From Phycisphaerales bacterium (GTDB lineage Bacteria > Planctomycetota > Phycisphaerae > Phycisphaerales > UBA1924): a stretch of DNA of 64,000 nt. Within the stretch, counting starts at the first letter, position 1. Every line of letters begins with the position of its first letter. Under the pieces are notes generated by a model, which was given only the letters and a program-made list of their open reading frames with translations, did no database searches and was not told the origin of the DNA. A program made the translations under genes and the position numbers. This document shows, piece after piece, positions 1 to 51,167 of this stretch. The stretch lies in the NCBI GenBank assembly GCA_965227605.1, contig OZ245745.1, positions 945,694 to 1,009,693 on the forward strand, in the 5' to 3' direction.

Positions 1-1
1 C

Positions 2-1240
2 GCCGGCCTCCTCAAAACCCGCGAATCCGGCGGCCTCTACGACGCCTTCCGCCACCGCTGGGTCTTCCCCATCCGCGATCAGGTCGGACGTGTCGTCGCC
101 TTCGGCGGGCGCAAGCTCCGCGAAGAGGACGAACCCAAATACCTCAACTCGTCCGAAACCCCAATCTTCGACAAGTCCTCGACGTGCTACGGACTCCCCC
201 AGGCCACCAGCGCCATCCGCGAGTCCCGCCGCGCCGTCGTCGTCGAGGGCTACACCGACGTCATCGCCTGCCACCAGGCCGGCGAGCGCAACGTCGTCGC
301 CACCCTCGGCACCGCCCTCACCCCCAAGCACGCCCGCATCCTCCGCCGCCTCTGCGACGAGGTCGTCCTCGTCTTCGACGGGGACGACGCCGGCCAGCGC
401 GCCGCGGACCGCGCCCTCGAAATCTTCTTCGCCGAGCCCATCGACGTCCGCATCGCCGTCCTCCCGGGAGGCGCCGACCCCGCCGACCTCGTTTCGCAGG
501 AAGACGGCGCCGAGAAATGGCGCGACGCCATCGAGTCCGCCGCAGACGCCCTCGACTTCCGCTTCACCCGCATGGCCGCCCGCCTCGCCGCCATGACGCC
601 CACCGCCCGCCTCCGCGCTGTCGAAGAAGACATCGCCGCCCTCCGCGACCTCGGCCTCGCCAAGCTCTCCCCCATCCGCCGCAAGCACGTCGTCCGCCGC
701 CTCGCCCAGCTCGCCGGCGTCGACGAGGGCGCCGTCAGCCGCGCCTTCCAGTCCCTCCCCCCCCAACGCCGCACCACTGACGAGTCCGCCGCCCACGAAC
801 GCACCGAGCCCGCCGGCCCCGCTGAGCACCTCGCCGCCGCCCTCCTCGCTCACCCGCCGCTGCGCACCACCCTCCTCGAGGCCGACACATCCCGCCTCCT
901 CGCCGCGGCCGCATCGGACGCGCGGGCGCGCGCCATCGTTGAAGCTGCCCTCTCCACCGACCCCGACCGTGCGCTCAGAGACCTCGACAACCCCGACCAC
1001 CGCGCCGCCGCCGTCGCCTGGACCCGCGCCGCCGAACGCCTCTCAGAGGGCGACCCCGCCCGACTCAAAAAAATCGCCGAGGACTGCCTCGCCGCTCTCG
1101 CCCGCCTATCGTCCCCGCCCGCACAGAAATCAACCGACGCCGACACCGATCAAGACGCCGGCACCCTCGAACGCATCAACGCACTCCGCACCTTGGGCGG
1201 CAACCCAACCGCGCTCGCCGCCCCCGGTATCAACGACTAA
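2..1240 (+). CDS. dnaG: DNA primase DnaG, C-terminal part (5' end lies outside window)
   Basis: Translating in frame from nt 2 gives a TOPRIM motif ([16 protein letters not shown] ... [17 protein letters not shown]) continuous with ORF 572..1240. It is followed by rpoD, the classic dnaG-rpoD arrangement. Confidence 0.85.
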
Positions 1241-1320
1241 CCCCCGCGCCCAGCGCCCACCGGCGCTCGGCACGTTTCTCACCTCTCGTTCCCACGACAG
1301 CGCTCACTCCGGAGAACACC

Positions 1321-3192
<1,872 letters not shown>

Positions 3193-3220
3193 TTCCCCTG
3201 GCCAACTTCACCTGACCCGA

Positions 3221-3250
3221 AGCCCAGTCATTGCGATGGCTGGGCTTTTT
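3221..3250 (+). terminator. Rho-independent terminator after rpoD (14-bp stem AGCCCAGTCATTGC/GCGATGGCTGGGCT plus T-run)
   Basis: Near-perfect hairpin with 2 G-U pairs, followed by TTTTT, 30 nt after the rpoD stop. Its sequence is closely related to the hairpin at 15119..15149. Confidence 0.65.
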
Positions 3251-3323
3251 CAATCGTGATAGACACCGGCGCGCGAACCTCTATCCTGACTTCAGACTTC
3301 AACTCCAACCGCAGAAAGTACCC

Positions 3324-5771
3324 ATGCCCCTCCGCTACACCGCCAGAATCCTCAAGGTCCTCCAGCAGTACGAGGACGGTGAGGCCGACGTTTCGACTCT
3401 TTCCCGCGAGCTGGGCGTCCCGCGCGAGGACCTGCCAGTCCTGCGCGAGGCGATCGAGCAGCTCATCGAGGAAGGGCACCTGATCGCCACCGAGGAGGAC
3501 TGGGTGGCGCTGCCGCCTTTGGGCGATGAGATCGTCGGGGAGTTCCGCAAGAACCCGCGGGGGTTCGGGTTCATCGTGCCGGACCAGCCGCTGGCGCACG
3601 GGGATGTGTTCGTTCCGCCGGACGCCACCAGCGATGCGCTGACGGGTGATCGGGTGCGGGCGAAGGTCGTGACGAAGAAGCGTCGCGGCGAGATCGACCA
3701 CACGGGCGTGATCGTTGAGATCCTGGAGCGCAAGCAGTCGCACTTCACGGGCGAGCTGCAGAAGCAGGGCGGGACGTGGCTGGTCTACCCGGACGGGAAG
3801 TCGCTGACGGCGCCGATCAACATCGGCGACCCGACGATCAAGAACGCGCGGGCCGGCGACAAGGTGGTCTTCGAGATCCTGAGCTACCCCGAGGGGCACC
3901 ACCTGGGGGAGGGCGTGATCGTCGAGGTGCTGGGCGAGGCCGGGGCGCCGGACGTGGAGACGCAGGCGGTCATCGCGGCGTACAACCTTCCCGGTGAGTT
4001 CCCGGAGGAGTGCGTGCAGCAGGCGCGGGAGGCGGCGAAGGGGTTTGATGAGGATGTCGATCGGGCCGAGAAATCCGGCGGTTTCGAGGGGCGCGAGGAC
4101 TTGCGCGGCACACTGATTCTGACGATCGACCCGCCGGACGCGAAAGACTTTGACGACGCGCTGTCGCTTGAGAAGATCACGCTGAAGAACGGGCAGCCGG
4201 GGTATCGACTAGGCGTGCACATCGCGGACGTGTCGCACTTCATCCCGGTGGATTCACCGCTGGATGAGGAGGCGATGAAGCGGGGGAACTCGGTGTACCT
4301 GCCGCGCAAGGTGATCCCGATGCTGCCGGAGCTGCTCTCGAACGGCGTGTGCTCGTTGCGGGAGCGGGAGCCGCGGTACGCCAAGAGCGCGTTCATTGAT
4401 TACAACCAGAAGGGCGAGGTGCAGGCGCGGGCGTACGCCTCGACGGTGATCCACTCGGCGAAGCGGATGACGTATCTCGAGGCGCAGGCGATCATCGATG
4501 GTGATCTTGAGGAAGCAAAGAAGCACGCGCGGACGGATACGGAGCCGACGCCGGAGATCATCAAGAACCTGAAGGATCTGAACGCGCTGGCGAAGGCGAT
4601 TCATACGCGCCGGCGCAAGGCGGGGATGATCCATCTGGATCTGCCCGAGGTTGAACTGATCTACGACGACGAGGGGCGGGTGGTTGACGCCGAGCCGGAG
4701 GACGACGCCTGGACGCACACGCTGATCGAGATGTGCATGGTGGAGGCGAACGAGGCGGTGGCGGTGTTGTTCGAGCGGCTGGGCGTGCCGGCGATGCGGC
4801 GCACGCACCCGGACCCGGAGGTCGGGTCGTACGAGAACCTGCAGAAGTTTCTGAAGGCGGCGGGGTATTCGATCTCGAAGGAGCCGACGCGGCATGAGCT
4901 GCAGTCGCTGCTGGACTCGACGAAGGGGCGCCCCGAGGCGCCGGCGGTGCACTTTGCGGTGCTGCGCACGCTGACCAAGGCGGCGTACTCACCCGCGATG
5001 ATCGGGCACTTCGCGCTGGCGTCGGAGGCGTACTCGCACTTCACCAGCCCGATCCGGCGGTATTGCGATCTGACGATCCACCGCCAGCTCGCGGAATTCC
5101 TGCGCCTGACGGACAACGGGTCGGACGTACCGAACAATCATGAGGCGCTGTCAAAGCTCGGCGACCGGATGAACAAGTCGGGGGTGATGCCGGACGAGCA
5201 GGCGCTGTCGGAGATCGGGGCGCGGTGCAACCGCACGGAGGAGCAGGCGTCGGGCGCGGAGCGTGAGCTGCGGAACTTCTTGGTGATGCAGCTGCTGTCG
5301 GAGAAGATCGGCGAGGTGTTCCGCGGCGTGTGCACGGGCGTGACAAAGGCGGGCGTCTTCGTGCGGATCGACAAGTACCTCGTCGAGGGTTTGGTGAAGT
5401 CGGAGGATCTGCCGACGGGCGCCGACCAGCCCGGGCCCGGGCGATGGCGTCTGGACGATCGCACGGGGGCGCTTGTGGAAGAGCGAACGAAGCGGTCGTT
5501 CAGGCTCGGCGATCAGGTGCAGGTGACGGTGTCGCAGGTGAACCTGGCGGCGAAGCAGATGGAGCTGCTGATCCCGGAGGGCGAGGCGTCGAAGCGGGCG
5601 GGCGTGGGCAAGGCGCTGAAGCTCGGCTCCGAGGGCGGCGGGCTGGGGCACGCGGAGGGCGCGGGCTTCAGCGGGAAGACCGGCAAGCAGCGGCGCGACC
5701 AGCGCTCGAAGAGCCGCGACCGGCGGAAGAAGGATTACCGGCAGGAGCGGAAGGACGGGGGGAAGCGGTAG
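3324..5771 (+). CDS. rnr: Ribonuclease R (RNB-family 3'-5' exoribonuclease with S1 domain and basic C-terminal tail)
   Basis: RNB catalytic motif region (LTIDPPDAKDFDDALSLEK). C-terminal S1-like region (GEVFRGVCTGVTKAGVFVRID). Lys/Arg-rich tail. The start is moved to the ATG at 3324 (MPLRYT), because ORF 3231 begins inside the rpoD terminator. Confidence 0.9.
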   Translation: MPLRYTARILKVLQQYEDGEADVSTLSRELGVPREDLPVLREAIEQLIEEGHLIATEEDWVALPPLGDEIVGEFRKNPRGFGFIVPDQPLAHGDVFVPPDATSDALTGDRVRAKVVTKKRRGEIDHTGVIVEILERKQSHFTGELQKQGGTWLVYPDGKSLTAPINIGDPTIKNARAGDKVVFEILSYPEGHHLGEGVIVEVLGEAGAPDVETQAVIAAYNLPGEFPEECVQQAREAAKGFDEDVDRAEKSGGFEGREDLRGTLILTIDPPDAKDFDDALSLEKITLKNGQPGYRLGVHIADVSHFIPVDSPLDEEAMKRGNSVYLPRKVIPMLPELLSNGVCSLREREPRYAKSAFIDYNQKGEVQARAYASTVIHSAKRMTYLEAQAIIDGDLEEAKKHARTDTEPTPEIIKNLKDLNALAKAIHTRRRKAGMIHLDLPEVELIYDDEGRVVDAEPEDDAWTHTLIEMCMVEANEAVAVLFERLGVPAMRRTHPDPEVGSYENLQKFLKAAGYSISKEPTRHELQSLLDSTKGRPEAPAVHFAVLRTLTKAAYSPAMIGHFALASEAYSHFTSPIRRYCDLTIHRQLAEFLRLTDNGSDVPNNHEALSKLGDRMNKSGVMPDEQALSEIGARCNRTEEQASGAERELRNFLVMQLLSEKIGEVFRGVCTGVTKAGVFVRIDKYLVEGLVKSEDLPTGADQPGPGRWRLDDRTGALVEERTKRSFRLGDQVQVTVSQVNLAAKQMELLIPEGEASKRAGVGKALKLGSEGGGLGHAEGAGFSGKTGKQRRDQRSKSRDRRKKDYRQERKDGGKR

Positions 5772-5800: not shown

Positions 5801-7501
5801 ATGCGACGAGACGTGATGTGTGCTGTGGTGTCCGCGATGGTGTGCGCGAGCGCTGCGACGGCGGAAGAGTTCCGGATCGTCAGCCTCGATGAAACGCCGA
5901 CGCCGGAGCCCGGGCTGGTGGTGACGGACCACACGGCGTACGGCGGACCAGTGCTGGGGCTGTCCGGGGCGTCGTGCCAGGCGACGCTGGTGTTCCCGGG
6001 CATGTCGGGCTCGCGTCAGGCGGTTGTCTTTGGAGACGGGATCGCGCCGTTCGAGATCGCGATGCGCACGCGTGAGGGTGAGATGGGCGGGATGGATCCG
6101 GTGGGTGAGTACATCCACTCGCTTGATCCGGAGGCGCCTCTTACGACGGACTCGGGGCTGGTTGGGGCGATCGCCCGTATTGAGAACGCGCCGGATTTTT
6201 TCCGTCCCGCGGCGTTGCTGATTCATGATGCGCTCACGGGGGCGCGCGTTGAGGTGATGCGCCGCGGCGATATCCCGGTGAACGACACGCTCGAGGTGGA
6301 TGTGCAGACGGGTAATGACACGTTCTCGATCAACGGCGCCGGGCTGGCCGCGGCGTTTGTTGAGCTGGGGTTCGACGAGCAGCTCGAGGCGATCGTCAGT
6401 GGTGACGGTTCACCCGGCTCGCTGCGGGTGGTGGCGAAAGAGGGGGACGCGGCGGACGGCTCGGGCGCTTTTGACGACTTCTTCCCGCCGGCGATCAACG
6501 ACGCGGGGACGATCGCGTTCGCGGCGGAGCTGCAGGGCGCCGCGGGGGCGTTCGTGTTTCCGTGGGCCGTGTATCGGGAGGTCGGCGGGACGCTCGAAGA
6601 GGTGACGCGCGAGGGCGCGCTCGACCCGTTCGGGTTGGTGATCACGGATCTGGGTTTCACGACGCCGAGCCTGAACGCGGGCGGCGCGACGGCGTACTGG
6701 GCGCGTGTTGACCTGGGCGTCGACGGGATGCGGGTATCGCTTGTGTATGCCCCGGCGAGCGGGGCTCACACGCGGTTGGTGATTTCTGGCGATTCGGTCC
6801 CCGGGGTCGAGGGCGCGCTGTTTCGTTTGGTGAGCGGGCGGACGTACGCGATCAATGATGCCGGCCAGGTCGCGTTCAAGGGGCAGGTCAATCTGAACCC
6901 GGACGGCGCGCTGGATACGGTGAACGGGGTGTTCCGCGCCGACGGTGCGGGGGGCGCGATGCTCACGGTGGCGCTCGAGCGCGACCCGGCGCCAGGCGGC
7001 GGGACGCTGCGCACGATTTCAGATTACGCGCTGAACGCTTCGGGGCAGATCGCTTTTGAGGCGACGGTTGATATGCCGGACGGGTCGACGCCGCGCGCTG
7101 TTTTCTTCTACGACGACGATGAGGGGTTGCGCGAGATCGTGCGCGAGGGTGATGTGATTCTCGGCGGCGTGATCGAATTTCTGGAGTTCAGCGGGGCGGA
7201 TGTCGGCGTCAGGGTTGATGGTGTGCGCTCGGGGCTCAACGACAACGGTGAGGTGGCGTTCTGGTTCCGGCTTGATAGTTCGGAGGGGATCAGCGACCGC
7301 GAGGGTGTGGCGGTCTGGCCCGCGGGGGCGGTGAGTTGCCCGGCGGACCTCGACGGCGACGGGTCGGTCGGCGCGGGCGATCTCGCGGCGCTGCTGGCCT
7401 CGTGGGGTCAGGGCGGCACGGGCGATCTGGATTCGAGCGGCGAGACAGACGCGGCGGATCTGGCGGCGCTGCTCGCGGCGTGGGGCGCGTGCCCGGGCTG
7501 A
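5801..7501 (+). CDS. Secreted repeat protein with C-terminal dockerin-like domain
   Basis: Signal peptide MRRDVMCAVVSAMVCASAATA at the ATG at 5801. Tandem ~50-aa repeats ending in the motif N[DA][AS]G[TQE][IV]AF. C-terminal double EF-hand-like repeat DLDGDGSVGAGDLAALLASWG ... DLDSSGETDAADLAALLAAWG. The 5330..5800 part of the ORF overlaps rnr and is not coding. Confidence 0.6.
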   Translation: MRRDVMCAVVSAMVCASAATAEEFRIVSLDETPTPEPGLVVTDHTAYGGPVLGLSGASCQATLVFPGMSGSRQAVVFGDGIAPFEIAMRTREGEMGGMDPVGEYIHSLDPEAPLTTDSGLVGAIARIENAPDFFRPAALLIHDALTGARVEVMRRGDIPVNDTLEVDVQTGNDTFSINGAGLAAAFVELGFDEQLEAIVSGDGSPGSLRVVAKEGDAADGSGAFDDFFPPAINDAGTIAFAAELQGAAGAFVFPWAVYREVGGTLEEVTREGALDPFGLVITDLGFTTPSLNAGGATAYWARVDLGVDGMRVSLVYAPASGAHTRLVISGDSVPGVEGALFRLVSGRTYAINDAGQVAFKGQVNLNPDGALDTVNGVFRADGAGGAMLTVALERDPAPGGGTLRTISDYALNASGQIAFEATVDMPDGSTPRAVFFYDDDEGLREIVREGDVILGGVIEFLEFSGADVGVRVDGVRSGLNDNGEVAFWFRLDSSEGISDREGVAVWPAGAVSCPADLDGDGSVGAGDLAALLASWGQGGTGDLDSSGETDAADLAALLAAWGACPG

Positions 7502-9555: not shown

Positions 9556-10985
9556 GAGGATAGCGAGAAATGCATCAGAAATGCTTCAGTAGGAACCATT
9601 TGCAAAAGCGATTCGAACCACAAGCTAAAACGCAAGGCGACAGTTAAAATTATTTAGTAGTCTTTGCAGCGTAGAGGTTTAAATAATATTGCACGCGTTC
9701 CACGATTTCATCGGCTTCGATAGAGTCATCCACTGCCTGAGTATTTTTTTCCGGTTTTAGCTGCATTCTTGTATAGACAGCTAGTAGTGGATCTGAAAAT
9801 GAGTAGCGTCCGCTAGCAGGGTCAAAGCGAACAAATGTACCTCGTTTGCTTGTTTGAAGTTCATTCAAATAATTGCTGAGGTTGCTTGCAGGATACTCTG
9901 GCGAATCTTTGTGTATAAGCTCAATTAGTTGGGCATGTGTTGCGCCTTCATCTGGCATCGAAGAAAGTGCTGTAAGAATTAAGCGTCCGTTATCATATTT
10001 TACTTCTCGATATCGGCGTATAGCTTTATCGTATCGTTTTTTGAGTGAATCTGATGATTCTCTTACGTATTCTCTGACGGCCTCGCTAAGGGAATCTTCT
10101 GAGACGGTGACTGTATCGTGCGCAGCGTGAGTGATTTCTGCGGCCCTGCATACGTTGAGAGCAATCTGGTGGCACACAGCGCCTAGGCCTGAAGAGTAAT
10201 CTATGATTCCTGAAATAACTTTGCTGGGCAAAATGATATTGAGGATTTTCTGACCTTGAGTTAGTATTTGGCCGAGTTCTTCATCGTCCATAAGGGGAAC
10301 ATGCACCTCACTAACTCTATTGGCAAGTTCTGGGTCATAATCAAGGATTTCTCGCGGGGAATCAGTTGCTCCAATGGCGATTACTTTTACTGTTGGATAA
10401 GCGCTGCTTTCGTCAACAAATACTTTTAGCGCTTGCGCTAGTTTTCCTTTGGCACCTCCAGATACTTTGTGAAAATCTTCAAGTACTAGGCACAAATCCT
10501 GTTCACCGAGCATCTGTGCTAGGCGCTGTGCAGTAAGTTGTGGTGGTACGAGTCTTTCGGCTGTTTCTGAGTTGCCGCTACTTATTCTGCTGTCGATAGT
10601 CGCACGGATAAAAGCATAGCTGGCTTGTACTGAAGCTGATTTACCTTGGCTATTTGATGCTGTTGCTGATGTTGTATAATATAAATTTAGCTGATCAAAA
10701 GCTTCAAGTAATACCTGTTCATATGTAGTGTCTTGTGTGCAGCGAACAGTCACATGGTTAGGGTACAGTTGGTGAAGCTTGTGGTAAATGAGCGAAGATT
10801 TGCCGGATCCCGACTGTCCGTATACTATCAATTGTTTTCCTGGGGTTTGTAGTGCATTGGTAATATCATTTTCTAAATCTGGTCGTTCGACAAAATTAAC
10901 TTTTGCATTTGTTCCTGGTGTAAAGACGTCATAGATAGAGTGAGGGGGTGTTGATGTAGGCATGGCTAAATATTGCAGCTTGCGC
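9556..10985. other. Low-GC (roughly 40%) compositional island, probable horizontally acquired insertion
   Basis: Abrupt drop in GC relative to flanking roughly 68% GC DNA. Carries a single gene (9650..10963). The island boundary lies inside the last codons of ruvB. Confidence 0.7.
9650..10963 (-). CDS. P-loop NTPase of unknown function (Walker A GQSGSGKS, Walker B LCLVLEDFH), foreign-composition gene
   Basis: 437-aa ORF. Walker A is LIVYGQSGSGKSSL (GxxGSGKS-type as in the FtsK/HerA/AAA-like classes). A hydrophobic-DE Walker B lies ~110 aa later. ~200-aa C-terminal domain with no recognisable motif. AT-rich codon usage unlike the neighbours. Confidence 0.7.
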   Translation of the reverse strand: MPTSTPPHSIYDVFTPGTNAKVNFVERPDLENDITNALQTPGKQLIVYGQSGSGKSSLIYHKLHQLYPNHVTVRCTQDTTYEQVLLEAFDQLNLYYTTSATASNSQGKSASVQASYAFIRATIDSRISSGNSETAERLVPPQLTAQRLAQMLGEQDLCLVLEDFHKVSGGAKGKLAQALKVFVDESSAYPTVKVIAIGATDSPREILDYDPELANRVSEVHVPLMDDEELGQILTQGQKILNIILPSKVISGIIDYSSGLGAVCHQIALNVCRAAEITHAAHDTVTVSEDSLSEAVREYVRESSDSLKKRYDKAIRRYREVKYDNGRLILTALSSMPDEGATHAQLIELIHKDSPEYPASNLSNYLNELQTSKRGTFVRFDPASGRYSFSDPLLAVYTRMQLKPEKNTQAVDDSIEADEIVERVQYYLNLYAAKTTK

Positions 10986-14031: not shown

Positions 14032-15096
14032 ATGTTCAACACGATTCTTCCCGCCGCCGCTGTGATCTCGATGAGCGCGGCCGCCTTTGGCCAGACGCTC
14101 TCGCTGGGCGACGACATGCCCGCGATCGGCGAGGACGCCGTGTGGCTGCAGGGCAGCCCGGTGACGGACTGGGAGCCCGGGCAGGTGTATGTGATCGACT
14201 TCTGGGCGACGTGGTGCGGTCCCTGCATCAGCAGCATCCCGCACATCAACGAGCTGTCGAAGGAGTACGCCGACGAGGGCGTGAACGTGATCGGCATGGC
14301 CATCTGGCCCCGCCCCGGCATGACGCCCACGGGCGACTTTGTCGAGGAGAAGGGCGAGGACATGGGGTACCTGATCGCCGAGGACATCGACGGCAAGCTG
14401 GCCGAGCGCTACATGAGCGCGACCAACTCCAACGGCATCCCGACGATCATGATCGTGAACCGTGAAGGGCAGCTGGTCTGGAAGGGCCACCCGATGATGG
14501 GCTTCGACGAGGCGCTCGAGAGCGTGGTCGATGGGACGTTTGATATTCAGGACGCGATCCGGGCGCAGGAACTTGAGAAGCAGGCGGACGGGTTCCTGAT
14601 GGATGCGCAGAAGAGCGCCGGCGCGGGCGACTGGGACGGCGCGGTCAGCAAGCTCAAGAGCGTGGCGGCGATCGATGGCTACAACCAGGCGGCGTACTAC
14701 GGCATGGTGGCGTTCCAGGTGCAGGCGCAGGAAGGCCAGGGGAACAACCCCGAGGCGGCGTACGCGTACGGACGCGACCTGATGACTCGTTTCTCAGATG
14801 ACGAGATGATCTTCTCGTACATGGCGCAGTTCGTCGCTGAGGGTCCGATCGCCGAGGGTTCGCGCGACTTGGACTTTGCGTACAAGGCCGCAAAGCAGGG
14901 CGTGAAGAACGCCGGCGAGGGTGAGTTCTTCCCGTACGCGGCGCTGGGCAGCGTGTACCACGCGCAGGGCGCGTACGACAAGGCGATCGAGGTGCAGATG
15001 AAGGCGATCTCGATCGCGACCGCTGAGAACGAGCCCGAGGCGGTGAAGCAGCTCGAGGCGGCGCTTGACGAGTACAAGTCACACGCGACGAACTGA
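14032..15096 (+). CDS. Secreted thiol:disulfide oxidoreductase (TlpA/ResA-like thioredoxin fold) with C-terminal TPR-like helical domain
   Basis: Signal peptide. Thioredoxin active site FWATWCGPC. Alpha-helical repeat C-terminal half. Confidence 0.75.
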   Translation: MFNTILPAAAVISMSAAAFGQTLSLGDDMPAIGEDAVWLQGSPVTDWEPGQVYVIDFWATWCGPCISSIPHINELSKEYADEGVNVIGMAIWPRPGMTPTGDFVEEKGEDMGYLIAEDIDGKLAERYMSATNSNGIPTIMIVNREGQLVWKGHPMMGFDEALESVVDGTFDIQDAIRAQELEKQADGFLMDAQKSAGAGDWDGAVSKLKSVAAIDGYNQAAYYGMVAFQVQAQEGQGNNPEAAYAYGRDLMTRFSDDEMIFSYMAQFVAEGPIAEGSRDLDFAYKAAKQGVKNAGEGEFFPYAALGSVYHAQGAYDKAIEVQMKAISIATAENEPEAVKQLEAALDEYKSHATN

Positions 15097-18537: not shown

Positions 18538-19800
18538 TTAGGAGCAGGGGCCCCAGGTGGCGATGAGGATGGCGAGGTCGGCGGCGTTGGTGTCGCCGTC
18601 GCTGTTGAGGTCGGCGGGGCCGGCGGTTCCCCAGCTCGCTAAGAGCACGGCGAGGTCGGCGGCGTCGACGGTGTTGTTGCCGTCGAGGTCGCCCGCGCAT
18701 GGTGGGGGGTCGAGGTTGATGTCCCAGCCGATGAGGGAGAAGGCGAGGAGGTCGGCGTAGGTGGTGTAGCCGGGGTTGGCGCCTTGGCCCGGGCCGTTGG
18801 GGGAGGACGTGGTCGGGTCCATGACGCCGATGTTGGGTGTGATCTCGAGGAGTACGTCGTCCTTCCAGTGGCTGGCCTGGCGACCGTCGCCGAAGCGGCC
18901 GGTGGAGAAGCGGTAGGTGACATCGAGGGGCGCGGTGACGACGGCGTTGACCTGATCGAGGGCGGCCTCGACATCCTGGCGGGTTTCGCGGGCGACGGTT
19001 GCGTAATCGGCGAGGGTGGCGGGGTCGTTGGCGACGCCGCCGGTCCCGACGCGGAAGACGTCGAGGGCGGTGATGCTGTCGCCTGAGAAGCCGTCGGTGG
19101 AGCTGATGAAGCCGAGCATGTGGCCGATCTCGTGGACCATGACGTAGACGGTGTCGATGAAGCCTTCGGTGAGGCCATCGGAGGGGTCGTTGTCGAAATC
19201 GAAGTCGGTGTTGAAGACGATGGAGGCGTCGGCGAAGTCGGGGTCGGAGGTGTCGACGGGGAAGCCGAGGGCGCGGGCGCAGGCGGTGGTGAGTTCGATG
19301 CCGTCGAAGGAGGCGTCGGAGGTTGAGACGAAGCCGTCGTTGGTCTCGGCGTCGAGGTCCGGGTTGGGGAGGGCGTTGATCAATGTACTCTCGGCGGCGC
19401 CGGCGTCGGCGACGGCGGCGGCGCGGAAGTCGGCGTAGGGGACGTCGATGCGGTTGCTGGACGCGGCGCCGATGAAGCCCGCGTCCGAGACGAAGCCGAC
19501 GTCGATGAAGATGGTGACGTCGTCGCTGATCTGTGATTCCCAGACGTCGGCGGCGAGCTGGAGGGCGGCGACGAACTCGGCGTCGGCGGCGACGTCGGGG
19601 TCGAGGTTGTACTGGATGTCAAGACCGGCGCCGCGGGCGGGGTTTGCCCCGACACGGGTGAGCTCATTGCCCTGGAAGTGGTCGTGGATGAACTCGGCGA
19701 GATCGGGCGAGCAGCCGCTGGAACAGACGAAGGAGTCGTCAGCGAGAGCGGGGGCAGCTGCGAGCGCAGCGACAAGTGCGGCGGCGGTGCGGGTCGTCAT
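18538..19800 (-). CDS. Secreted zinc metallopeptidase-like protein (HEIGH motif) with C-terminal dockerin-like domain
   Basis: Signal peptide MTTRTAAALVAALAAAPALA. HExxH zinc site in VMVHEIGHMLGF. C-terminal DLDGNNTVDAADLAVLLASWG ... DLNSDGDTNAADLAILIATWG. Confidence 0.65.
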   Translation of the reverse strand: MTTRTAAALVAALAAAPALADDSFVCSSGCSPDLAEFIHDHFQGNELTRVGANPARGAGLDIQYNLDPDVAADAEFVAALQLAADVWESQISDDVTIFIDVGFVSDAGFIGAASSNRIDVPYADFRAAAVADAGAAESTLINALPNPDLDAETNDGFVSTSDASFDGIELTTACARALGFPVDTSDPDFADASIVFNTDFDFDNDPSDGLTEGFIDTVYVMVHEIGHMLGFISSTDGFSGDSITALDVFRVGTGGVANDPATLADYATVARETRQDVEAALDQVNAVVTAPLDVTYRFSTGRFGDGRQASHWKDDVLLEITPNIGVMDPTTSSPNGPGQGANPGYTTYADLLAFSLIGWDINLDPPPCAGDLDGNNTVDAADLAVLLASWGTAGPADLNSDGDTNAADLAILIATWGPCS

Positions 19801-32918: not shown

Positions 32919-34154
32919 TCAGCCCCAGGCGGCCAGCAGTATGGCGAGATCGCCCGCGTCGGTGATGGTGTCGCCGTTGAGATCGGCCGCGGGTGTTCCC
33001 CACGCGGCGAGGAGGACGGCGAGGTCGCCCGCGCCGACGGATCCGTCGCCGTCGAAGTCGGCGGGGTCGGAGGCGTCGCAGAGGTTGAGGAGGGCGACGT
33101 TCTGCGAGGGGGTGCCGCTGGCTTTGTCGAAGCGCCCGGCAACGGCGAGGGCGCTGGTGGCGGGGTCGATGGCGATGGCTCGTGCCTCGGGGGCGCCGCC
33201 GTCGAGGGAGAGGCCGCCGGCGAGGATGGTCCACGCGGCGCCGTCCCAGGCGGCGATCGCGCCGGCTTCGCTTGGGCCGAAGTCGCCGGCGGCGAGGAGG
33301 GTGTCGCCTGAGCCGAGGTCGGCGATAAAGAGGTTGTAGACGGGGCCGCCGGGTCCGCTGGCGAGGGTTTGCCAGCCGGCGCCGGAGTTGACGGCGACGT
33401 TGGAAGTGAATTCGCCCGCGGCGTAGAGCGCGGGGCCGGCGCCGAGGTCCGCGGTCAGCACGGAGCGCACCGGGGCGTCGAAGCCGCCGGCGATGTCGTT
33501 CCAGCTGCCGGCGTCGAAGCGGGCAATGTTCTGGAGCTTGTCGCCACCGACGGCGAAGTCGAGATCTCCCGCGGCGACGAGGGCGCCTGTGGGATCGACG
33601 GCGAGATCGAAGACCTCACCGATGAGGCCCTGGCCGACCTGGTTCCATGCGGCGCCGTCCCAGCTCGCGACGGCGCGGGCGCTGTCGCCGCCGGTGAGCC
33701 AGAAGCCCCCGCCGGCGTAGAGGGTGTTGTCGAGAACGAGGAGGGCGTTGGCGGGGCGGTTAAAGCCGGCGCCGGCGGGCCCCCACGACCCGCCGAGCCG
33801 GCGTGCGACCATCGAAGGGAGTTCGGAGCCGATCTGCGTGAAGGCGCCGGCGATCCAGAGCGAGCCGTCGAAGAAGACCGTGTCGATGACGCGGGCGTTG
33901 ACGTCGGCGGCGAGCGAGGACCACGCGGCGCCGTCCCACTGCGCGACGCGCGAGGCGGGCGCTCCGGCGATGGAGGTGAAGACGCCGACGGCGACGAGCA
34001 CGTCGCCCGAGCCGAGGTCGGCGGTGGTGAGCGCGAGCACTTCGGCGGAGGCGCCGGGGTCGGCGACGCCGGTTTCCCAGGTGGGGTCGCAGTCACCGCC
34101 GGCCATCGCGGCGTAGCTCATGAACATGGTGGCGATAAACGACGAGCGGTCCAT
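32919..34154 (-). CDS. Repeat (WDGAAW-motif, propeller-like) protein with C-terminal dockerin-like domain
   Basis: Repeated [VA]xWDGAAWxxL units. C-terminal FDGDGSVGAGDLAVLLAAWG ... DLNGDTITDAGDLAILLAAWG. The N-terminus has no convincing signal peptide, so the start is uncertain. Confidence 0.5.
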   Translation of the reverse strand: MDRSSFIATMFMSYAAMAGGDCDPTWETGVADPGASAEVLALTTADLGSGDVLVAVGVFTSIAGAPASRVAQWDGAAWSSLAADVNARVIDTVFFDGSLWIAGAFTQIGSELPSMVARRLGGSWGPAGAGFNRPANALLVLDNTLYAGGGFWLTGGDSARAVASWDGAAWNQVGQGLIGEVFDLAVDPTGALVAAGDLDFAVGGDKLQNIARFDAGSWNDIAGGFDAPVRSVLTADLGAGPALYAAGEFTSNVAVNSGAGWQTLASGPGGPVYNLFIADLGSGDTLLAAGDFGPSEAGAIAAWDGAAWTILAGGLSLDGGAPEARAIAIDPATSALAVAGRFDKASGTPSQNVALLNLCDASDPADFDGDGSVGAGDLAVLLAAWGTPAADLNGDTITDAGDLAILLAAWG

Positions 34155-46680: not shown

Positions 46681-47007
46681 ATGGCGACGGCGACGAAATC
46701 GAAGAAGAAGATCACCACCAAGGTCCGCCCGCTGGGCGACAAGGTGCTCGTGCAGCGCGACGAGTCGGCGGAGGTGACCGAGTCGGGCATCTACCTGCCC
46801 GAGCAGGCCAAGGACAAGCCTAAGTCGGGCGTGATCGTGGCGGTGGGCGACGGCGCCCTCTCGACCGAGACGGGCGAGCGCACGCCCATGACCGTCAAGA
46901 AGGGCGATCGCGTGATCTTCGCCAGCTACGCCGGCACCGAGGTGAAGCTGGGTGACGACGAGCTGCTGATCATGAGCGAGGATGAAATCCTCGCGATTGT
47001 GGACTAA
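46681..47007 (+). CDS. groES: Co-chaperonin GroES
   Basis: 108 aa. VRPLGDKVLVQR ... GIYLPEQAKDKPKSGVIVAVGDG ... VKKGDRVIFASYAGTEVK is canonical GroES. RBS GAAGGAG. Confidence 0.95.
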   Translation: MATATKSKKKITTKVRPLGDKVLVQRDESAEVTESGIYLPEQAKDKPKSGVIVAVGDGALSTETGERTPMTVKKGDRVIFASYAGTEVKLGDDELLIMSEDEILAIVD

Positions 47008-47029
47008 TTACCAACCAAGCGGAGGCCAT

Positions 47030-47410
47030 ATGAGCACAGTCACAGAACATCATTCAATCACGGTTCCCATCTTTTCACGTCGATGGGGCCACGATGATAA
47101 CTGGACTTTCACAATGACCGACGAAGGGTGGGTAATCCAACTGGGTGCTCACACAGCACATGTCATCATTGAGCCCAAGGACGAAGTTCGTCCCAGCGAA
47201 ACGCTCTCAAAGTGGGCTAGAAATGACATGGTGACGCTTCCTGCTGGAACAACTGGATTTCTCGAGCATGTGTGGAGCCGTGCTCAGGAAGAAACGTTGT
47301 CTCGCGAACAGGTCAAGGCTGCGATCGAAGACATCGCGGAGTGGATTAACGCCACATCGAAGAGCAGGCCCAAGCGTGAAGAGGGTTTGTTTCACGAGTA
47401 CTTCGGTTAA
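47030..47410 (+). CDS. Hypothetical protein (126 aa), first gene of intra-groESL cassette
   Basis: ATG at 47030 preceded by GGAGG. No recognisable motif. Confidence 0.5.
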
Positions 47411-47412
47411 AC

Positions 47413-47616
47413 ATGACTTCCGACCAGCTCCGACAAGCGCTCGGCGAGCTCAACTCTGAGCGGGACGCCGAGTTTCATTTCGAGGGCGCTCCCCCGTGTC
47501 TGGTGCCTGGGGCGATCCTGATCCCTGACGAGGCGGACCATCTGGTCAAGGTTTCGGACGGGAAGCACGTCTACCTGATCGACGCGGAGCGCGTCGCCTG
47601 GGTCAAGATCGGGTAG
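47413..47616 (+). CDS. Hypothetical small protein (67 aa), second gene of intra-groESL cassette
   Basis: ATG 3 nt after the previous stop, suggesting coupled translation. No recognisable motif. Confidence 0.4.
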
Positions 47617-47698
47617 CCGCAAGATCGGTTGAGCGCACTTCGACACAAACACCAACACGCACATCAACGCACGACGAAACGATAAGGAACGAACGAAC

Positions 47699-49333
<1,635 letters not shown>

Positions 49334-49383
49334 GTCGAGAGCACAAAAAGTTCGGCCGCCTTTAACCGGGCGGTCGGGCATTC

Positions 49384-50217
49384 ATGGTCGTCCTTGACAA
49401 TCAGCGGGCGTTGAACGCAAGGCATCGTCGTGGCTATTGCTATCTTTGTGGCAAGCCATTTGAGCGCGAAGACATCACAAAGGACCATGCGCCTCCGATC
49501 AATCTCTTTGATCAAAATGATCGACAAAACGTTGTAATACTACCAGCTCATTTTAAATGTAACCAAGCAGCGTCATTCGACGATGAACGATCGATACAAT
49601 TACTAACTCCATATCTATGGGGTAACTCGATATCAAAAGATCGGCTACGCTTGAACTATCGCGCAGTTCACGACGAAAACACTCAACGGAATATAGGTGG
49701 AATCCGGGGAGCCGAACTTTACAGAGCTATATACCGTTGGATTCAAGGCTTTCATTGTCTGTTGTACGATGAATTTTTGCCACCACATCCAGTGACGAAG
49801 CATGCCATATCTTGCCCTCTGTATAGAGGTGTTGAACAAGAAGACGAGATGAAGATGCACGGACCTCAGCCTGCTCACCGTGTAATGGTTCGGCAATTAC
49901 GTATCAACAGACTGGCGTCGCGAGTGGATCGGATTGAAGCGTACAACGGTAAATTGAAGTATGAGTGCTGCTGGGTACGTATGGATGATGGGAGCCCAGC
50001 ATGTCTCTGGGGTATGCAAATATATGATTGGGAGAAGCTGACTCCTCAAGAATTTTTTCCTAAGCACGGCTGTGTCGGTTTTTATTTATCGTCTAATGGT
50101 AAGCCTGTGCGGGCAGAATGGTCTACGAGCGTGGAATACGATCATTCGTTGGATGATCTTTTACCCTTCGACTCTGCAGAGTCCCCTGCGACAGCGCCCC
50201 AGAATCCGACAGACTAA
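49384..50217 (+). CDS. HNH (His-Me finger) nuclease-domain protein with ~190-aa C-terminal domain of unknown function
   Basis: The N-terminus CYLCGKPFEREDITKDHAPPINLF ... ILPAHFKCNQ fits the CxxC / DH / H..CN HNH pattern. The rest is Cys/Trp-rich and unassignable. Confidence 0.6.
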   Translation: MVVLDNQRALNARHRRGYCYLCGKPFEREDITKDHAPPINLFDQNDRQNVVILPAHFKCNQAASFDDERSIQLLTPYLWGNSISKDRLRLNYRAVHDENTQRNIGGIRGAELYRAIYRWIQGFHCLLYDEFLPPHPVTKHAISCPLYRGVEQEDEMKMHGPQPAHRVMVRQLRINRLASRVDRIEAYNGKLKYECCWVRMDDGSPACLWGMQIYDWEKLTPQEFFPKHGCVGFYLSSNGKPVRAEWSTSVEYDHSLDDLLPFDSAESPATAPQNPTD

Positions 50218-50367
50218 GTGTAGTGCTGGTTGTGAATCTATTAGCGATTTGAAGGACTTTCCTGACAGCCGCTTCATTGTCGTCTACTTCTGAACTGCCG
50301 CAAACCCTTCAAGCGACTCTTCCAACGCATTGGCAAACTTCACGGCCTTCACGCTTACCCACAGCAC

Positions 50368-50399
50368 GAAAAAACCGGCCCCAATCACTCGGGGCCGGT
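50368..50399 (-). terminator. Rho-independent terminator for the PEP-CTERM gene (minus strand: CCGGCCCCGAGTGATTGGGGCCGG plus T7)
   Basis: 8-bp GC stem, followed by TTTTTTT on the minus strand, 20 nt after the stop of 50421..51167. Confidence 0.65.
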
Positions 50400-50420
50400 C
50401 GGGACAAGATTTCGTAATGA

Positions 50421-51167
50421 TCAGCGTCGGCGGCGGAACGCCCCCAGCCCTCCGGCCAGCAGGAGCGCTGCGCTGGGGGAAGGCACGATCTCGATGTCCT
50501 GGCTGAAGGTGAGGAAGCGGTTGGCTTCGGAGTCGATCCAGTCGATCGAGGCGAATGTGCCTGTGAAGATGTTCGAGACGATGGTCGGGTCGCCGGTGAG
50601 GTTTGGAACGGACGTCACCTCATCGACATCGCCAAGGATCGTGAACTGGCCGGCGAAGATCAGCCAAAGGCCTGTGTCGGGGTCCTGCATACCGTTCGGG
50701 CCGCCGGCGTGCCCGGGGTAGATGGTGGGGAGGCCCTTGTTTTCGGGCACGCCGGACCATGAGCCGTCCACGCCGTCACTGACGAACTCGAGGTCGGGGT
50801 TGGCCGAGGTCGTGGATGGGGCGGTGATCGGCCCGACGCTCACATAGCTGTCCCACTCGGAGGAGGGCACGGCCGGGAAGACGGCCGGGTTGATGTTTTG
50901 GGAGCTGTCGCCGCCGAACGGGTCCTGGTAGAGCTGCAGGCCGTTGCGCGTTCTGACGCTGTCGGTACCCGCGAACATGGTGAGCAGCGTGTTTTCCGGG
51001 TCATCGAAGGCGATGTAGAGGCGGGTGACGGTGGCGGCTTGGCCGATGGCGGCGGTCGCGGCGGCGTTCCAGGAGTCATCGGTGAGGAACACGCCGCCGC
51101 GGAAGTCGGCGGGGGCGGCGAGCGCGGGGAGCAACGCGACGGCGAGTGCGCATGGATAGCGTTTCAT
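50421..51167 (-). CDS. PEP-CTERM sorting-domain secreted protein
   Basis: Signal peptide MKRYPCALAVALLPALAAPA. The C-terminus VPSPSAALLLAGGLGAFRRRR is a PEP-like motif, then a TM helix, then an Arg cluster. Confidence 0.75.
   Translation of the reverse strand: MKRYPCALAVALLPALAAPADFRGGVFLTDDSWNAAATAAIGQAATVTRLYIAFDDPENTLLTMFAGTDSVRTRNGLQLYQDPFGGDSSQNINPAVFPAVPSSEWDSYVSVGPITAPSTTSANPDLEFVSDGVDGSWSGVPENKGLPTIYPGHAGGPNGMQDPDTGLWLIFAGQFTILGDVDEVTSVPNLTGDPTIVSNIFTGTFASIDWIDSEANRFLTFSQDIEIVPSPSAALLLAGGLGAFRRRR

What the first reader, a model, noticed from the sequence alone, without database searches (positions are those of the whole stretch)
7318..7501. Shared dockerin-like C-terminal module on three unrelated secreted proteins
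Genes 5801..7501 (+), 18538..19800 (-) and 32919..34154 (-) end in near-identical ~55-aa modules. Each consists of two EF-hand-like repeats, DLDGDGSVGAGDLAALLASWG ... DL(N/D)SDG(E/D)T(D/N)AADLAALLAAWG, with a preceding Cys and often a terminal Cys. The N-terminal domains are unrelated: an NDAGxxAF repeat protein, an HEIGH zinc peptidase, and a WDGAAW-repeat propeller-like protein. This looks like a family-wide cell-surface anchoring or sorting module distinct from the PEP-CTERM tags also present in the window.
Basis: seen in the sequence. Interest (0 to 1): 0.5.

Follow-up and report, generated by a model that had tools for sequence, protein, structure and literature searches.

The report
Cysteine-clamped dockerin tails in a Phycisphaerales genome

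Summary
Genes 5801..7501(+), 18538..19800(-) and 32919..34154(-) each end in a 54-56-aa module of two 21-residue repeats. These six repeats are the only ones in all six frames of the window. The N-terminal domains are unrelated.

The modules are less alike than "near-identical": 58-69% at the protein level and 61-72% at the DNA level.

The module is a dockerin. A family profile hits solved dockerins (2y3n_B, E=9.6e-8). An AlphaFold model (pLDDT 87) superposes on that dockerin (TM 0.74-0.80, rmsd 1.1 A).

It is a short-linker subtype, usually closed by a covarying Cys pair (CPxD...WGxC). It is a sister of NCBIfam's "GC-type dockerin" (NF041540). The three window copies score just below the Pfam and NCBIfam cut-offs.

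The subtype is very common in Phycisphaerales, with at least 24 copies in one MAG and 30,505 representative proteins in the large library. It is almost always at the extreme C-terminus of proteins with signal peptides.

Orthologues of the metalloprotease carry PEP-CTERM or T9SS tails in the same slot, which fits a surface-retention role.

No cohesin partner was found. Published counts give 25-42 dockerins against 0-1 cohesins per genome.

Verdict: new members of a known kind, of low to moderate interest.

The parts
5801..7501 (+). Gene 1, 566 aa. It has a signal-peptide-like N-terminus, five NxxGxxAF repeats (TIGR05002 / DUF7453) and a C-terminal dockerin-like module.
   Evidence: The identical 566-aa protein is in the representative library (P0169).
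5801..5863 (+). Probable Sec signal peptide of gene 1 (MRRDVMCAVVSAMVCASAATA|EEF).
   Evidence: Read from the sequence. This is an inference; no signal-peptide predictor was available.
7331..7498 (+). Gene 1 dockerin-like module (VSCPADLDGDG...AAWGACPG). Repeats lie at 7346..7408 and 7424..7486. The flanking cysteines are C513 and C564.
   Evidence: Pfam Dockerin_1 scores 15.0 bits and NF041540 16.7 bits, both below cut-off. The AlphaFold model of this tail has pLDDT 87.1.
18538..19800 (-). Gene 2, 420 aa. It has a signal peptide, an NF038122-family zinc metalloprotease domain (HEIGH at residue 223) and a C-terminal dockerin-like module.
   Evidence: (NF038122 196.4 bits). The exact protein is on an ENA metagenome contig and on a 2.76-Mb NCBI contig.
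19741..19800 (-). Probable Sec signal peptide of gene 2 (MTTRTAAALVAALAAAPALA|DDS).
   Evidence: Read from the sequence; an inference.
18541..18708 (-). Gene 2 dockerin-like module (PPPCAGDLDGNN...ATWGPCS). Repeats lie at 18628..18690 and 18550..18612. The flanking cysteines are C368 and C419.
   Evidence: Pfam Dockerin_1 scores 20.5 bits against a cut-off of 22.9.
32919..34154 (-). Gene 3, 411 aa. It has a weak signal-peptide-like N-terminus, a beta-propeller-like domain with WDGAAW repeats and a C-terminal dockerin-like module.
   Evidence: (Rax2 26.7 bits, DUF5122; both below cut-off). A relative in locus L026 has a clear signal peptide followed by GDCTPAW.
34101..34154 (-). Possible signal peptide of gene 3 (MDRSSFIATMFMSYAAMA|GGD); atypical.
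   Evidence: Read from the sequence and by analogy with the L026 homologue; an inference.
32922..33083 (-). Gene 3 dockerin-like module (LCDASDPADFDGDG...LAAWG-stop). Repeats lie at 32997..33059 and 32922..32984. There is no terminal Cys.
   Evidence: Pfam Dockerin_1 scores 16.8 bits and NF041540 21.4 bits, both below cut-off.

Best explanation
The three tails are bacterial dockerin modules of a Phycisphaerales-specific subtype. Each has two F-hand (EF-hand-like) calcium-binding loops, and each loop is followed by a helix reading DLAxLLAAWG. The linker between the repeats is unusually short, usually 5-7 residues. In most members a cysteine just before the first loop and a cysteine just after the second helix probably form a disulfide that ties the two ends of the module together.

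Proposed mechanism:
1. The proteins are exported by the Sec pathway through their N-terminal signal peptides (inferred).
2. The module folds on binding two Ca2+ ions and is locked by the disulfide in the oxidising periplasm or exterior (inferred).
3. Its small, hydrophobic helix face (Ala/Ser at positions 10, 14 and 18 of each repeat) docks non-covalently onto a common partner on the cell surface or in an extracellular complex.
4. This retains diverse enzymes and adhesin-like proteins, including the metalloprotease, the NxxGxxAF-repeat protein and the propeller protein.

The module thus plays the architectural role that PEP-CTERM or T9SS C-terminal domains play in other lineages. The partner, whether cohesin-like or not, is unidentified.

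Shown here: homology, fold, position in the protein, abundance, Cys covariation and anchor swapping. Inferred: Ca2+ binding, the disulfide, docking and localisation.
For: Sequence features. Loop positions 1, 3, 5 and 12 are D, D/N, D/S/N and D in 89-100% of 111 modules. Position 6 is Gly and position 8 is Val/Ile/Thr.

Homology. A profile of 118 modules hits solved dockerins across both repeats: 2y3n_B at E=9.6e-8, plus 4fl4, 5lxv, 6kg9, 2ccl, 1ohz, 2vn6 and 1daq.

Fold. The AlphaFold2 model has pLDDT 87.1 and two helices. Its best PDB match is the 2y3n_B dockerin (TM 0.74/0.80, rmsd 1.1 A, probability 1.00). The other good matches are all dockerins, while calmodulin matches reach only TM 0.27.

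Position. 108 of 115 module-bearing ORFs in 80 genome loci end within 6 residues of the module.

Export. 73 of 93 complete ORFs pass a crude signal-peptide test, and more look convincing by eye.

Passengers are diverse: FG-GAP, RCC1, PL14, beta-lactamase, PAD, EEP, BNR and others.

The Cys pair co-occurs: both present in 72, neither in 28, discordant in 8; Fisher p=1.7e-17. Dockerin termini are known to touch in an "intramolecular clasp" (PMC3821032).

Anchor swapping. NF038122 metalloprotease orthologues end, immediately after the same LIGWD motif, in this module, in the NF041540 GCP-type dockerin, in PEP-CTERM or in a T9SS CTD. Gene 1's domain is curated as "choice-of-anchor" and also matches a MYXO-CTERM-anchored family.

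Common binding surface. Within one MAG (24 paralogues) helix positions 10, 14, 15, 18 and 19 of both repeats are much more uniform than across genomes. Loop position 7 and the linker are equally variable in both sets.

Literature. Phycisphaerae (Nemodlikiaceae) MAGs carry 25-42 dockerins each, and a cohesin/dockerin peptidase complex, the "planctosome", has been proposed (PMC6461901).
Against: No partner was found:
- There was no cohesin among ten secreted or unknown window proteins.
- There was no recurrent neighbour family among 107 ORFs flanking such genes in other genomes.
- The published dbCAN counts show 0-1 cohesins against 25-42 dockerins per genome.

Each of the three tails scores below the curated Pfam and NCBIfam cut-offs.

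Foldseek E-values are weak (0.078 at best) because the domain is tiny.

The Cys covariation and the within-MAG uniformity are not corrected for phylogeny. Gene 3 lacks the terminal Cys.

Localisation, Ca2+ binding and retention of the module in the mature protein are all untested. How these proteins would cross the outer membrane is also unknown.
Confidence: 0.6

Rival explanations
1. The tail is a folded C-terminal secretion or sorting signal, analogous to the T9SS C-terminal domain. A dedicated outer-membrane export or attachment machine would recognise it and possibly remove it, so it would not be a permanent docking domain.
For: The tail is at the extreme C-terminus in 108 of 115 cases. 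It occupies exactly the slot of PEP-CTERM and T9SS CTD sorting signals in orthologous metalloproteases. NCBI curators class such passengers as "choice-of-anchor". There are far more dockerins than cohesins per genome.
Against: Many secreted proteins consist of 2-9 tandem copies, and some copies are internal (7 of 115 ORFs). That is not expected of a terminal sorting signal. The fold and the Ca2+ loops are those of bona fide docking modules. No conserved cleavage motif precedes the module, and no dedicated machinery gene is linked to it.
Confidence: 0.15
2. The module is a dockerin by descent but does not bind a cohesin-like protein. Instead it binds a non-protein envelope component (glycan or S-layer sugar) or substrate in a Ca2+-dependent way. 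Alternatively it serves only as a Ca2+-triggered folding or stabilising cap.
For: Cohesins are nearly absent from published counts and none was found here. The exposed helix face is made of small Ala/Ser/Gly residues rather than the polar or charged recognition pairs of cellulosomal dockerins.
Against: No dockerin is known to work this way (own knowledge, not tested here). The genome-specific uniformity of the helix face is what a shared protein receptor predicts. A mere stabilising cap would not need to sit on so many unrelated passengers.
Confidence: 0.13
3. The modules bind each other (dockerin to dockerin). The secreted proteins made only of tandem modules would then act as scaffolds that gather single-module enzymes, giving a cohesin-free assembly system.
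For: 81 of the 149 best-scoring representatives are at least 50% module sequence. Several of those read are a signal peptide followed only by tandem Cys-flanked modules (P0122, P0125, P0129, P0133). At least one of these poly-module proteins (P0135) is from Phycisphaerales MAGs. Cohesins are scarce.
Against: This is purely circumstantial, and no interaction test was possible. Ranking by summed score enriches for multi-copy proteins. Multi-dockerin proteins could equally cross-link cohesin-bearing partners.
Confidence: 0.1
4. The resemblance is chance, low-complexity Ala/Leu/Asp/Gly-rich sequence in a 66% GC genome, or a recent local duplication without function.
For: The composition is biased towards A, L, D and G. 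Individual Pfam and NCBIfam scores are below their cut-offs.
Against: Six repeats occur only at three C-termini, in frame. DNA identity is only 61-72% while protein motifs are conserved. Thousands of homologues keep the position-specific Ca2+-ligand pattern. The structure prediction is confident.
Confidence: 0.02

Closest known systems
NCBIfam NF041540, "GC-type dockerin domain-anchored protein" (dockerin_GC)
   Same: Both sit at the extreme C-terminus of Sec-exported proteins of Planctomycetota/Phycisphaerae. Both have two dockerin-like repeats, a Cys before the first loop and a terminal Gly-(x)-Cys(-Pro). Both are found on orthologues of the same NF038122 metalloprotease.
   Different: The window type has DLAxLLAAWG helices and a shorter module. 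It scores only 15.8-23.8 bits on NF041540 against a cut-off of 29. The sister type, with aromatic helices such as LSDFSFYLSLW...GCP, scores 35-60 bits. Gene 2 gave no NF041540 hit at all, and gene 3 lacks the terminal Cys.
Cellulosomal type I dockerins (Pfam PF00404; e.g. PDB 2y3n_B, 1ohz_B, 2vn6_B)
   Same: They share the duplicated ~22-residue F-hand repeat with Ca2+ ligands at positions 1, 3, 5, 9 and 12. They share the two-helix fold, near-symmetry of the two repeats and the usual C-terminal placement on enzymes.
   Different: The inter-repeat linker is about 6-7 residues shorter. The helix face is Ala/Ser/Leu rather than Ser-Thr / Lys-Arg. A Cys pair stands in place of the non-covalent "intramolecular clasp". 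The passengers are not cellulases. A cohesin partner was not found and is rare in this lineage. The tails score below the Pfam gathering score.
"Planctosome" hypothesis for Phycisphaerae Nemodlikiaceae (Andrei et al. 2019, PMC6461901)
   Same: It concerns the same lineage-level phenomenon: tens of dockerin-bearing secreted proteins per genome, including zinc metallopeptidases, proposed to dock on a surface complex.
   Different: That model rests on domain annotation of one MAG with a cohesin-bearing anchor and adaptor. Here no cohesin was seen. The metalloprotease is NF038122-family rather than M12B/M14. Neither the model nor this case has been tested experimentally.
PEP-CTERM/exosortase and T9SS C-terminal sorting domains
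   Same: They occupy the same architectural slot on orthologous passenger domains. They are used on many unrelated secreted proteins of one genome. PEP-CTERM-like tails coexist with the dockerin tails in this window.
   Different: PEP-CTERM is a motif plus a membrane helix plus a basic cluster, and it is processed by exosortase. The T9SS CTD is a beta-sandwich that is cleaved off. This module is a soluble two-helix Ca2+-binding domain with no membrane segment.

Membership tests
Dockerin (Pfam PF00404 Dockerin_1) | Two tandem ~22-residue F-hand repeats with Ca2+-ligand residues at loop positions 1, 3, 5, 9 and 12, with Asp at position 12. | tested here: met
   All six repeats fit D-x-[DN]-x-[DSN]-G-x-[VT]-x-x-x-D. 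Across 111 modules D1 is 96-99%, position 3 is D/N in 89-93%, position 5 is D/S/N in 96-97% and D12 is 99-100%.
Dockerin (Pfam PF00404 Dockerin_1) | Score at or above the Pfam gathering threshold (22.9 bits). | tested here: not met
   The scores are 15.0, 20.5 and 16.8 bits. However, 31 of 65 close relatives hit at E<=1e-3, and most database relatives carry a precomputed PF00404 hit.
Dockerin (Pfam PF00404 Dockerin_1) | Profile-level homology to experimentally solved dockerins across both repeats. | tested here: met
   The 118-sequence profile hits 2y3n_B at E=9.6e-8, 4fl4_A at 7.7e-6, 5lxv_B at 1.4e-5 and 6kg9_A at 1.6e-5, plus 2ccl, 1ohz, 2vn6 and 1daq.
Dockerin (Pfam PF00404 Dockerin_1) | Dockerin fold: two loop-helix motifs packed antiparallel. 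| tested here: met
   The AF2 model has pLDDT 87.1 and helices at residues 24-32 and 50-58. Foldseek's best match is 2y3n_B (TM 0.74/0.80, rmsd 1.1 A), and ranks 2-5 are all dockerins.
Dockerin (Pfam PF00404 Dockerin_1) | Ca2+-dependent binding to a cohesin module. | not testable with these tools
   There was no cohesin in ten candidate window proteins and no recurrent neighbour family at related loci. Published counts give 0-1 cohesins per Nemodlikiaceae MAG. The rest of the source genome could not be scanned.
NCBIfam NF041540 GC-type dockerin | HMM score at or above the curated cut-off (29 bits). | tested here: not met
   Gene 1 scores 16.7 bits, gene 3 scores 21.4 bits and gene 2 gave no hit at E<=1. 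WG-type tails of orthologues score 15.8-23.8 bits, while GCP-type tails score 35-60 bits.
NCBIfam NF041540 GC-type dockerin | Module at the extreme C-terminus of a secreted protein. | tested here: met
   The modules end 0-4 residues before the stop in the window and within 6 residues in 108 of 115 relatives. The N-termini look like signal peptides.
NCBIfam NF041540 GC-type dockerin | Flanking cysteines with a terminal Gly-(x)-Cys. This reading of "GC-type" is my inference from member sequences, not from the curators' text. | tested here: inconclusive
   The feature is present in gene 1 (SCPAD...WGACPG) and gene 2 (PCAGD...WGPCS) and absent at the C-terminus of gene 3. In the wider family the counts are both 72, neither 28 and discordant 8.
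Canonical EF-hand pair (calmodulin-like) | Helix-loop-helix with an entering helix, Glu at loop position 12 and the four-helix EF-hand pair fold. | tested here: not met
   Position 12 is Asp in 99-100% of modules. Only two helices are predicted. Calmodulin structures match with TM 0.27 and rmsd about 10 A, although the sequence profile touches calmodulin at about E=1e-4.
PEP-CTERM sorting signal (TIGR02595) | PEP motif, hydrophobic membrane helix and a basic C-terminal cluster. | tested here: not met
   None of the three tails has these elements, and NCBIfam gave no PEP_CTERM hit. Such tails occur on other window genes and on distant orthologues of gene 2.
T9SS C-terminal domain (PF18962) | An ~80-residue beta-sandwich C-terminal domain. 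| tested here: not met
   The predicted structure is helical and there is no Pfam hit. PF18962 is found only on distant orthologues of gene 2.

The most novel reading that the evidence does not exclude
Phycisphaerales may run a cohesin-independent docking system. In it, disulfide-clamped, short-linker dockerins on tens of secreted enzymes per genome would bind a non-cohesin receptor. That receptor could be the secreted "poly-dockerin" proteins made only of tandem modules, through dockerin-dockerin contacts. This would be a new way for a Gram-negative-type cell to build an extracellular multi-enzyme assembly.
Probability: 0.2. Interest if true: 0.6.

Novelty: new member of a known kind. Interest (0 to 1): 0.25.

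Why it matters
Practically, it shows that three proteins which standard annotation would leave without a C-terminal domain call belong to the dockerin-tagged exoproteome of a Phycisphaerales bacterium. Both Pfam and NCBIfam score the tails below their cut-offs. A dedicated HMM for the "LLAAWG / CPxD...WGxC" subtype would recover many such proteins.

Biologically, it restates an open question rather than answering it. What do the tens of dockerins per planctomycete genome dock onto when cohesins are scarce or absent?

Three observations give concrete handles for an experiment: the covarying Cys clamp, the genome-specific helix face and the poly-dockerin proteins. The module itself is a known kind.

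Tried and rejected
- Cohesin in the window. A Pfam scan of ten secreted or unannotated window proteins found no cohesin, only redoxin-TPR, PMT_2, YicC and PDZ.
- Conserved neighbour or partner. 107 ORFs flanking module genes in other genomes share no recurrent family. The most frequent is N_methyl in 4 of 107. Single-member hits were not listed, so one cohesin cannot be excluded.
- Neighbourhood of a poly-module protein (P0135). It holds housekeeping genes plus an FG-GAP protein and is uninformative.
- Naming the source genome. Gene 1 and gene 3 products are not on record as called genes.
- Literature search for "GC-type dockerin": no papers. No paper in the searchable library describes a natural disulfide clasp in dockerins.
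- tRNA and Rfam scans of the window found nothing.
- Rejected: an EF-hand/calmodulin-type domain, because of Asp12, two helices and TM 0.27.
- Rejected: RTX/T1SS-type Ca2+ repeats, because the proteins have N-terminal signal peptides and no GGxGxD nonapeptides (read from the sequence).
- Rejected: recent duplication, because DNA identity is only 61-72%.
- The Cys-Cys distance in the model could not be measured, because coordinates are not returned.
Full report
**Observation**

Each ends in a 54-56-residue module of two 21-residue repeats of the form D-[LF]-[DN]-x-x-x-x-[VT]-x-[AG]-x-D-L-A-x-L-[LI]-A-x-W-G.

A pattern scan of all 973 six-frame segments of the window found exactly six such repeats. 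They lie two per gene and end 0-4 residues before the stop codon. An HMM made from the three tails found nothing else in the window; the next best hit had E=0.18.

The tails share 24 invariant columns. They are 58-69% identical in protein and 61-72% in DNA. So they are conserved paralogous modules, not "near-identical" recent copies.

The N-terminal parts show no mutual similarity (best E=0.22) and fall into different families:
- Gene 1 has TIGR05002 "choice-of-anchor" NxxGxxAF repeats / DUF7453, with five NxxGxxA[FY] motifs.
- Gene 2 is an NF038122 metalloprotease with HEIGH.
- Gene 3 has a weak Rax2/DUF5122-like propeller with WDGAAW repeats.

All three begin with signal-peptide-like segments. 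Gene 3's is atypical, but a homologue has a clear one.

**What it is**

Individually the tails hit Pfam Dockerin_1 at 15.0-20.5 bits (cut-off 22.9). Two of the three (genes 1 and 3; gene 2 gave no hit) also hit NCBIfam NF041540, "GC-type dockerin domain-anchored protein", at 16.7 and 21.4 bits (cut-off 29). All of these hits are sub-threshold.

Family-level evidence settles the homology:
- A profile of 118 modules (the three tails plus database relatives) hits solved dockerins over both repeats. These include 2y3n_B at E=9.6e-8 and 4fl4, 5lxv, 6kg9, 2ccl, 1ohz, 2vn6 and 1daq. Calmodulin appears only at about 1e-4.
- AlphaFold2 with that alignment gives a confident model (pLDDT 87.1, pTM 0.71) with two helices.
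- The model's best PDB match is the Bacteroides cellulosolvens dockerin 2y3n_B (TM 0.74/0.80, rmsd 1.1 A over 53 columns, probability 1.00). All other good matches are dockerins, and calmodulin matches have TM 0.27.
- In 111 aligned modules the Ca2+-ligand positions are conserved as in dockerin F-hands: D1 96-99%, D/N3 89-93%, D/S/N5 96-97%, G6 86-95%, V/I/T8 and D12 99-100%.

Two features distinguish the subtype:
- The stretch between the Trp of helix 1 and the first Asp of loop 2 is only 5-7 residues in 93 of 108 modules. That is about 6-7 residues shorter than in solved dockerins (alignments).
- There is a Cys three residues before loop 1 and a Cys two residues after the final Trp-Gly, giving the consensus CPADL...AAWGxCP.

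The two cysteines co-occur strongly: both in 72, neither in 28 and one only in 8 (Fisher p=1.7e-17, not phylogenetically corrected). Dockerin termini are known to contact each other in a stabilising "intramolecular clasp" (PMC3821032). A disulfide version is therefore the natural reading. That paper does not mention one, and my searches found no paper describing one.

Genes 1 and 2 have the pair (C513/C564 and C368/C419). Gene 3 has only an upstream Cys.

**Relation to the curated GC-type dockerin**

Orthologues of the gene 2 metalloprotease end either in the window's "WG" type or in a sister type with aromatic helices and a terminal GCP, for example ...LSDFSFYLSLW...GCP.

The sister type scores 35-60 bits on NF041540. 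WG-type tails score 15.8-23.8 bits. The window modules are therefore a sister subtype of the curated family. They share its position and Cys architecture but fall outside its threshold.

**Distribution**

The module profile finds 30,505 representative proteins (50%-identity clusters) at E<=1e-3 and 3,038 at E<=1e-10. It finds 562 proteins in the word-indexed search. Several of those are named "Dockerin type domain" or "GC-type dockerin domain-anchored protein" by their sources, and most carry a precomputed PF00404 hit.

The best 80 are almost all from Phycisphaerales, Phycisphaeraceae or Planctomycetota MAGs, mostly freshwater. One MAG, LOGT_bin.0086, contributes 18 of those 80 loci and at least 24 module-bearing ORFs.

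In these loci 108 of 115 module ORFs end within 6 residues of the module. 73 of 93 complete ORFs pass a crude signal-peptide test.

Passengers are very diverse: NxxGxxAF, FG-GAP, RCC1, polysaccharide lyase 14, beta-lactamase, peptidyl-arginine deiminase, EEP nuclease/phosphatase, di-haem oxidoreductase, BNR and others.

The closest orthologue of gene 2 (76-77% identity) is in that same Phycisphaeraceae MAG. The exact protein lies on a 2.76-Mb NCBI contig. So the window comes from a Phycisphaerales-like bacterium.

**Function and mechanism**

The NF038122 catalytic domain ends in a conserved LIGWD motif. Directly after it, different lineages attach one of the following:
- the WG dockerin
- the GCP dockerin
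- a PEP-CTERM signal
- a T9SS C-terminal domain (PF18962, with PF13860)
- another ~190-residue domain

Gene 1's repeat domain is curated as "choice-of-anchor" and also matches a MYXO-CTERM-anchored family. The dockerin tail thus fills the slot of known surface-sorting or anchoring signals.

Within the single MAG, helix positions 10, 14, 15, 18 and 19 of both repeats are nearly uniform (Ser/Ala, Ala, Ile/Val, Ala, Ala; entropy 0-1.5 bits). Across other genomes the same positions have entropy 0.55-2.75 bits. Loop position 7 and the linker are equally variable in both sets. This fits all paralogues of a genome docking on one common partner through a symmetric, small-residue helix face, although shared ancestry is only partly controlled for.

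The most likely mechanism is therefore Sec export, then Ca2+-dependent folding locked by the disulfide, then non-covalent docking on a shared surface or extracellular partner. Only the sequence, fold, position and distribution parts of this are shown. Ca2+ binding, the disulfide, docking and localisation are inferred.

**The missing partner**

- No cohesin was found among ten secreted or unknown window proteins.
- The three genes are scattered among housekeeping genes: RNase R and pheT beside gene 1, pdxJ and a 2-hydroxyacid dehydrogenase beside gene 2, and a UbiD-like gene beside gene 3.
- 107 ORFs flanking module genes elsewhere share no recurrent family.

Andrei et al. (2019) counted 25-42 dockerins but 0-1 cohesins in the larger Nemodlikiaceae (Phycisphaerae) MAGs. 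From one MAG they proposed a cohesin/dockerin peptidase complex, the "planctosome". The phenomenon is thus already in the literature, and the partner remains an open question.

**Rival explanations**

The rivals are a cleaved sorting signal, binding to a non-protein envelope component, and dockerin-dockerin assembly on "poly-dockerin" proteins. The last is prompted by a side observation. 81 of the 149 best-scoring representatives are at least half module sequence, and several of those read consist of a signal peptide followed only by 3-7 tandem Cys-flanked modules. At least one poly-module protein (P0135, nine modules) is from Phycisphaerales MAGs. Chance or low complexity is excluded.

**Verdict**

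The module is a dockerin of a subtype that is abundant and already noticed in Phycisphaerae, and it is a sister of a curated NCBIfam family. I rate it as new members of a known kind, with low to moderate interest. The modest new points are the covarying Cys clamp, the short linker, the genome-specific helix face and the fact that these copies escape both curated thresholds.

Noticed in passing
window 9650..10963 (-), inside the low-GC island at about 9.5-11 kb: A single 437-aa P-loop NTPase gene (Walker A GQSGSGKS) sits in a 44-57% GC island within a 66% GC genome, between pheT and a ruvB-like gene. It matches Pfam AAA_16/nSTAND1. It also matches, nearly full-length, the PADLOC candidate defence family PDC-S59 (E=6e-32). 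It is probably a horizontally acquired single-gene defence candidate.
   Followed up: partly
window 1..4000: GC skew flips from strongly negative (-0.29 to -0.16 over 1-3000) to positive (+0.04, rising to +0.2 to +0.35) and then stays positive, apart from two near-zero or slightly negative 1-kb bins at ~30 and ~52 kb, to the end of the window, independent of gene strand. The cumulative skew minimum near 3 kb could mark a replication origin region.
   Followed up: no
proteins P0122, P0125, P0129, P0133, P0135 (not in the window); loci L082/L083 8001..9293: These are secreted proteins made almost entirely of 3-9 tandem Cys-flanked dockerin-like modules ("poly-dockerins"). 81 of the 149 top representatives are at least 50% module sequence. 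P0135 is from Phycisphaerales MAGs, and its neighbours are uninformative.
   Followed up: partly
proteins P0270-P0389 (homologues of window gene 18538..19800): The NF038122 metalloprotease domain is fused, right after a conserved LIGWD motif, to at least five alternative C-termini in different lineages. These are the WG dockerin, the GCP (NF041540) dockerin, PEP-CTERM, a T9SS CTD and an unassigned ~190-aa domain ending ...RNDDEQFKAKGP.
   Followed up: partly
window 50421..51167 (-) and 52055..52762 (+): Two small secreted proteins end in tripartite PEP-CTERM-like tails (VPSP / IPAP, a hydrophobic stretch, then RRRR). They score below the TIGR02595 cut-off. The second just reaches TIGR03382 GC_trans_RRR (15.9 against 15.85). 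So the genome uses at least two kinds of C-terminal tag.
   Followed up: partly
window 14032..15096 (+): A secreted redoxin/thioredoxin-fold protein with C-terminal TPR repeats. It could be a periplasmic thiol-disulfide oxidoreductase, which may bear on disulfide formation in exported proteins, but no link was tested.
   Followed up: no
window 47008..47698 and 49334..50420: An unusually long (~690 bp) lower-GC spacer separates groES (46681..47007) from groEL (47699..49333). A second lower-GC stretch (0.54-0.59) lies downstream of groEL. There is no Rfam or tRNA hit in either.
   Followed up: no
loci L003, L008, L080 (CAYMSD01), L035, L053 (JASGCF01), L072 (CAMBUI01): Some MAGs carrying typical Phycisphaerales-type module genes are labelled Klebsiella, Limnohabitans or Kuenenia in their record titles. 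These are probably mislabelled or contaminated bins.
   Followed up: no
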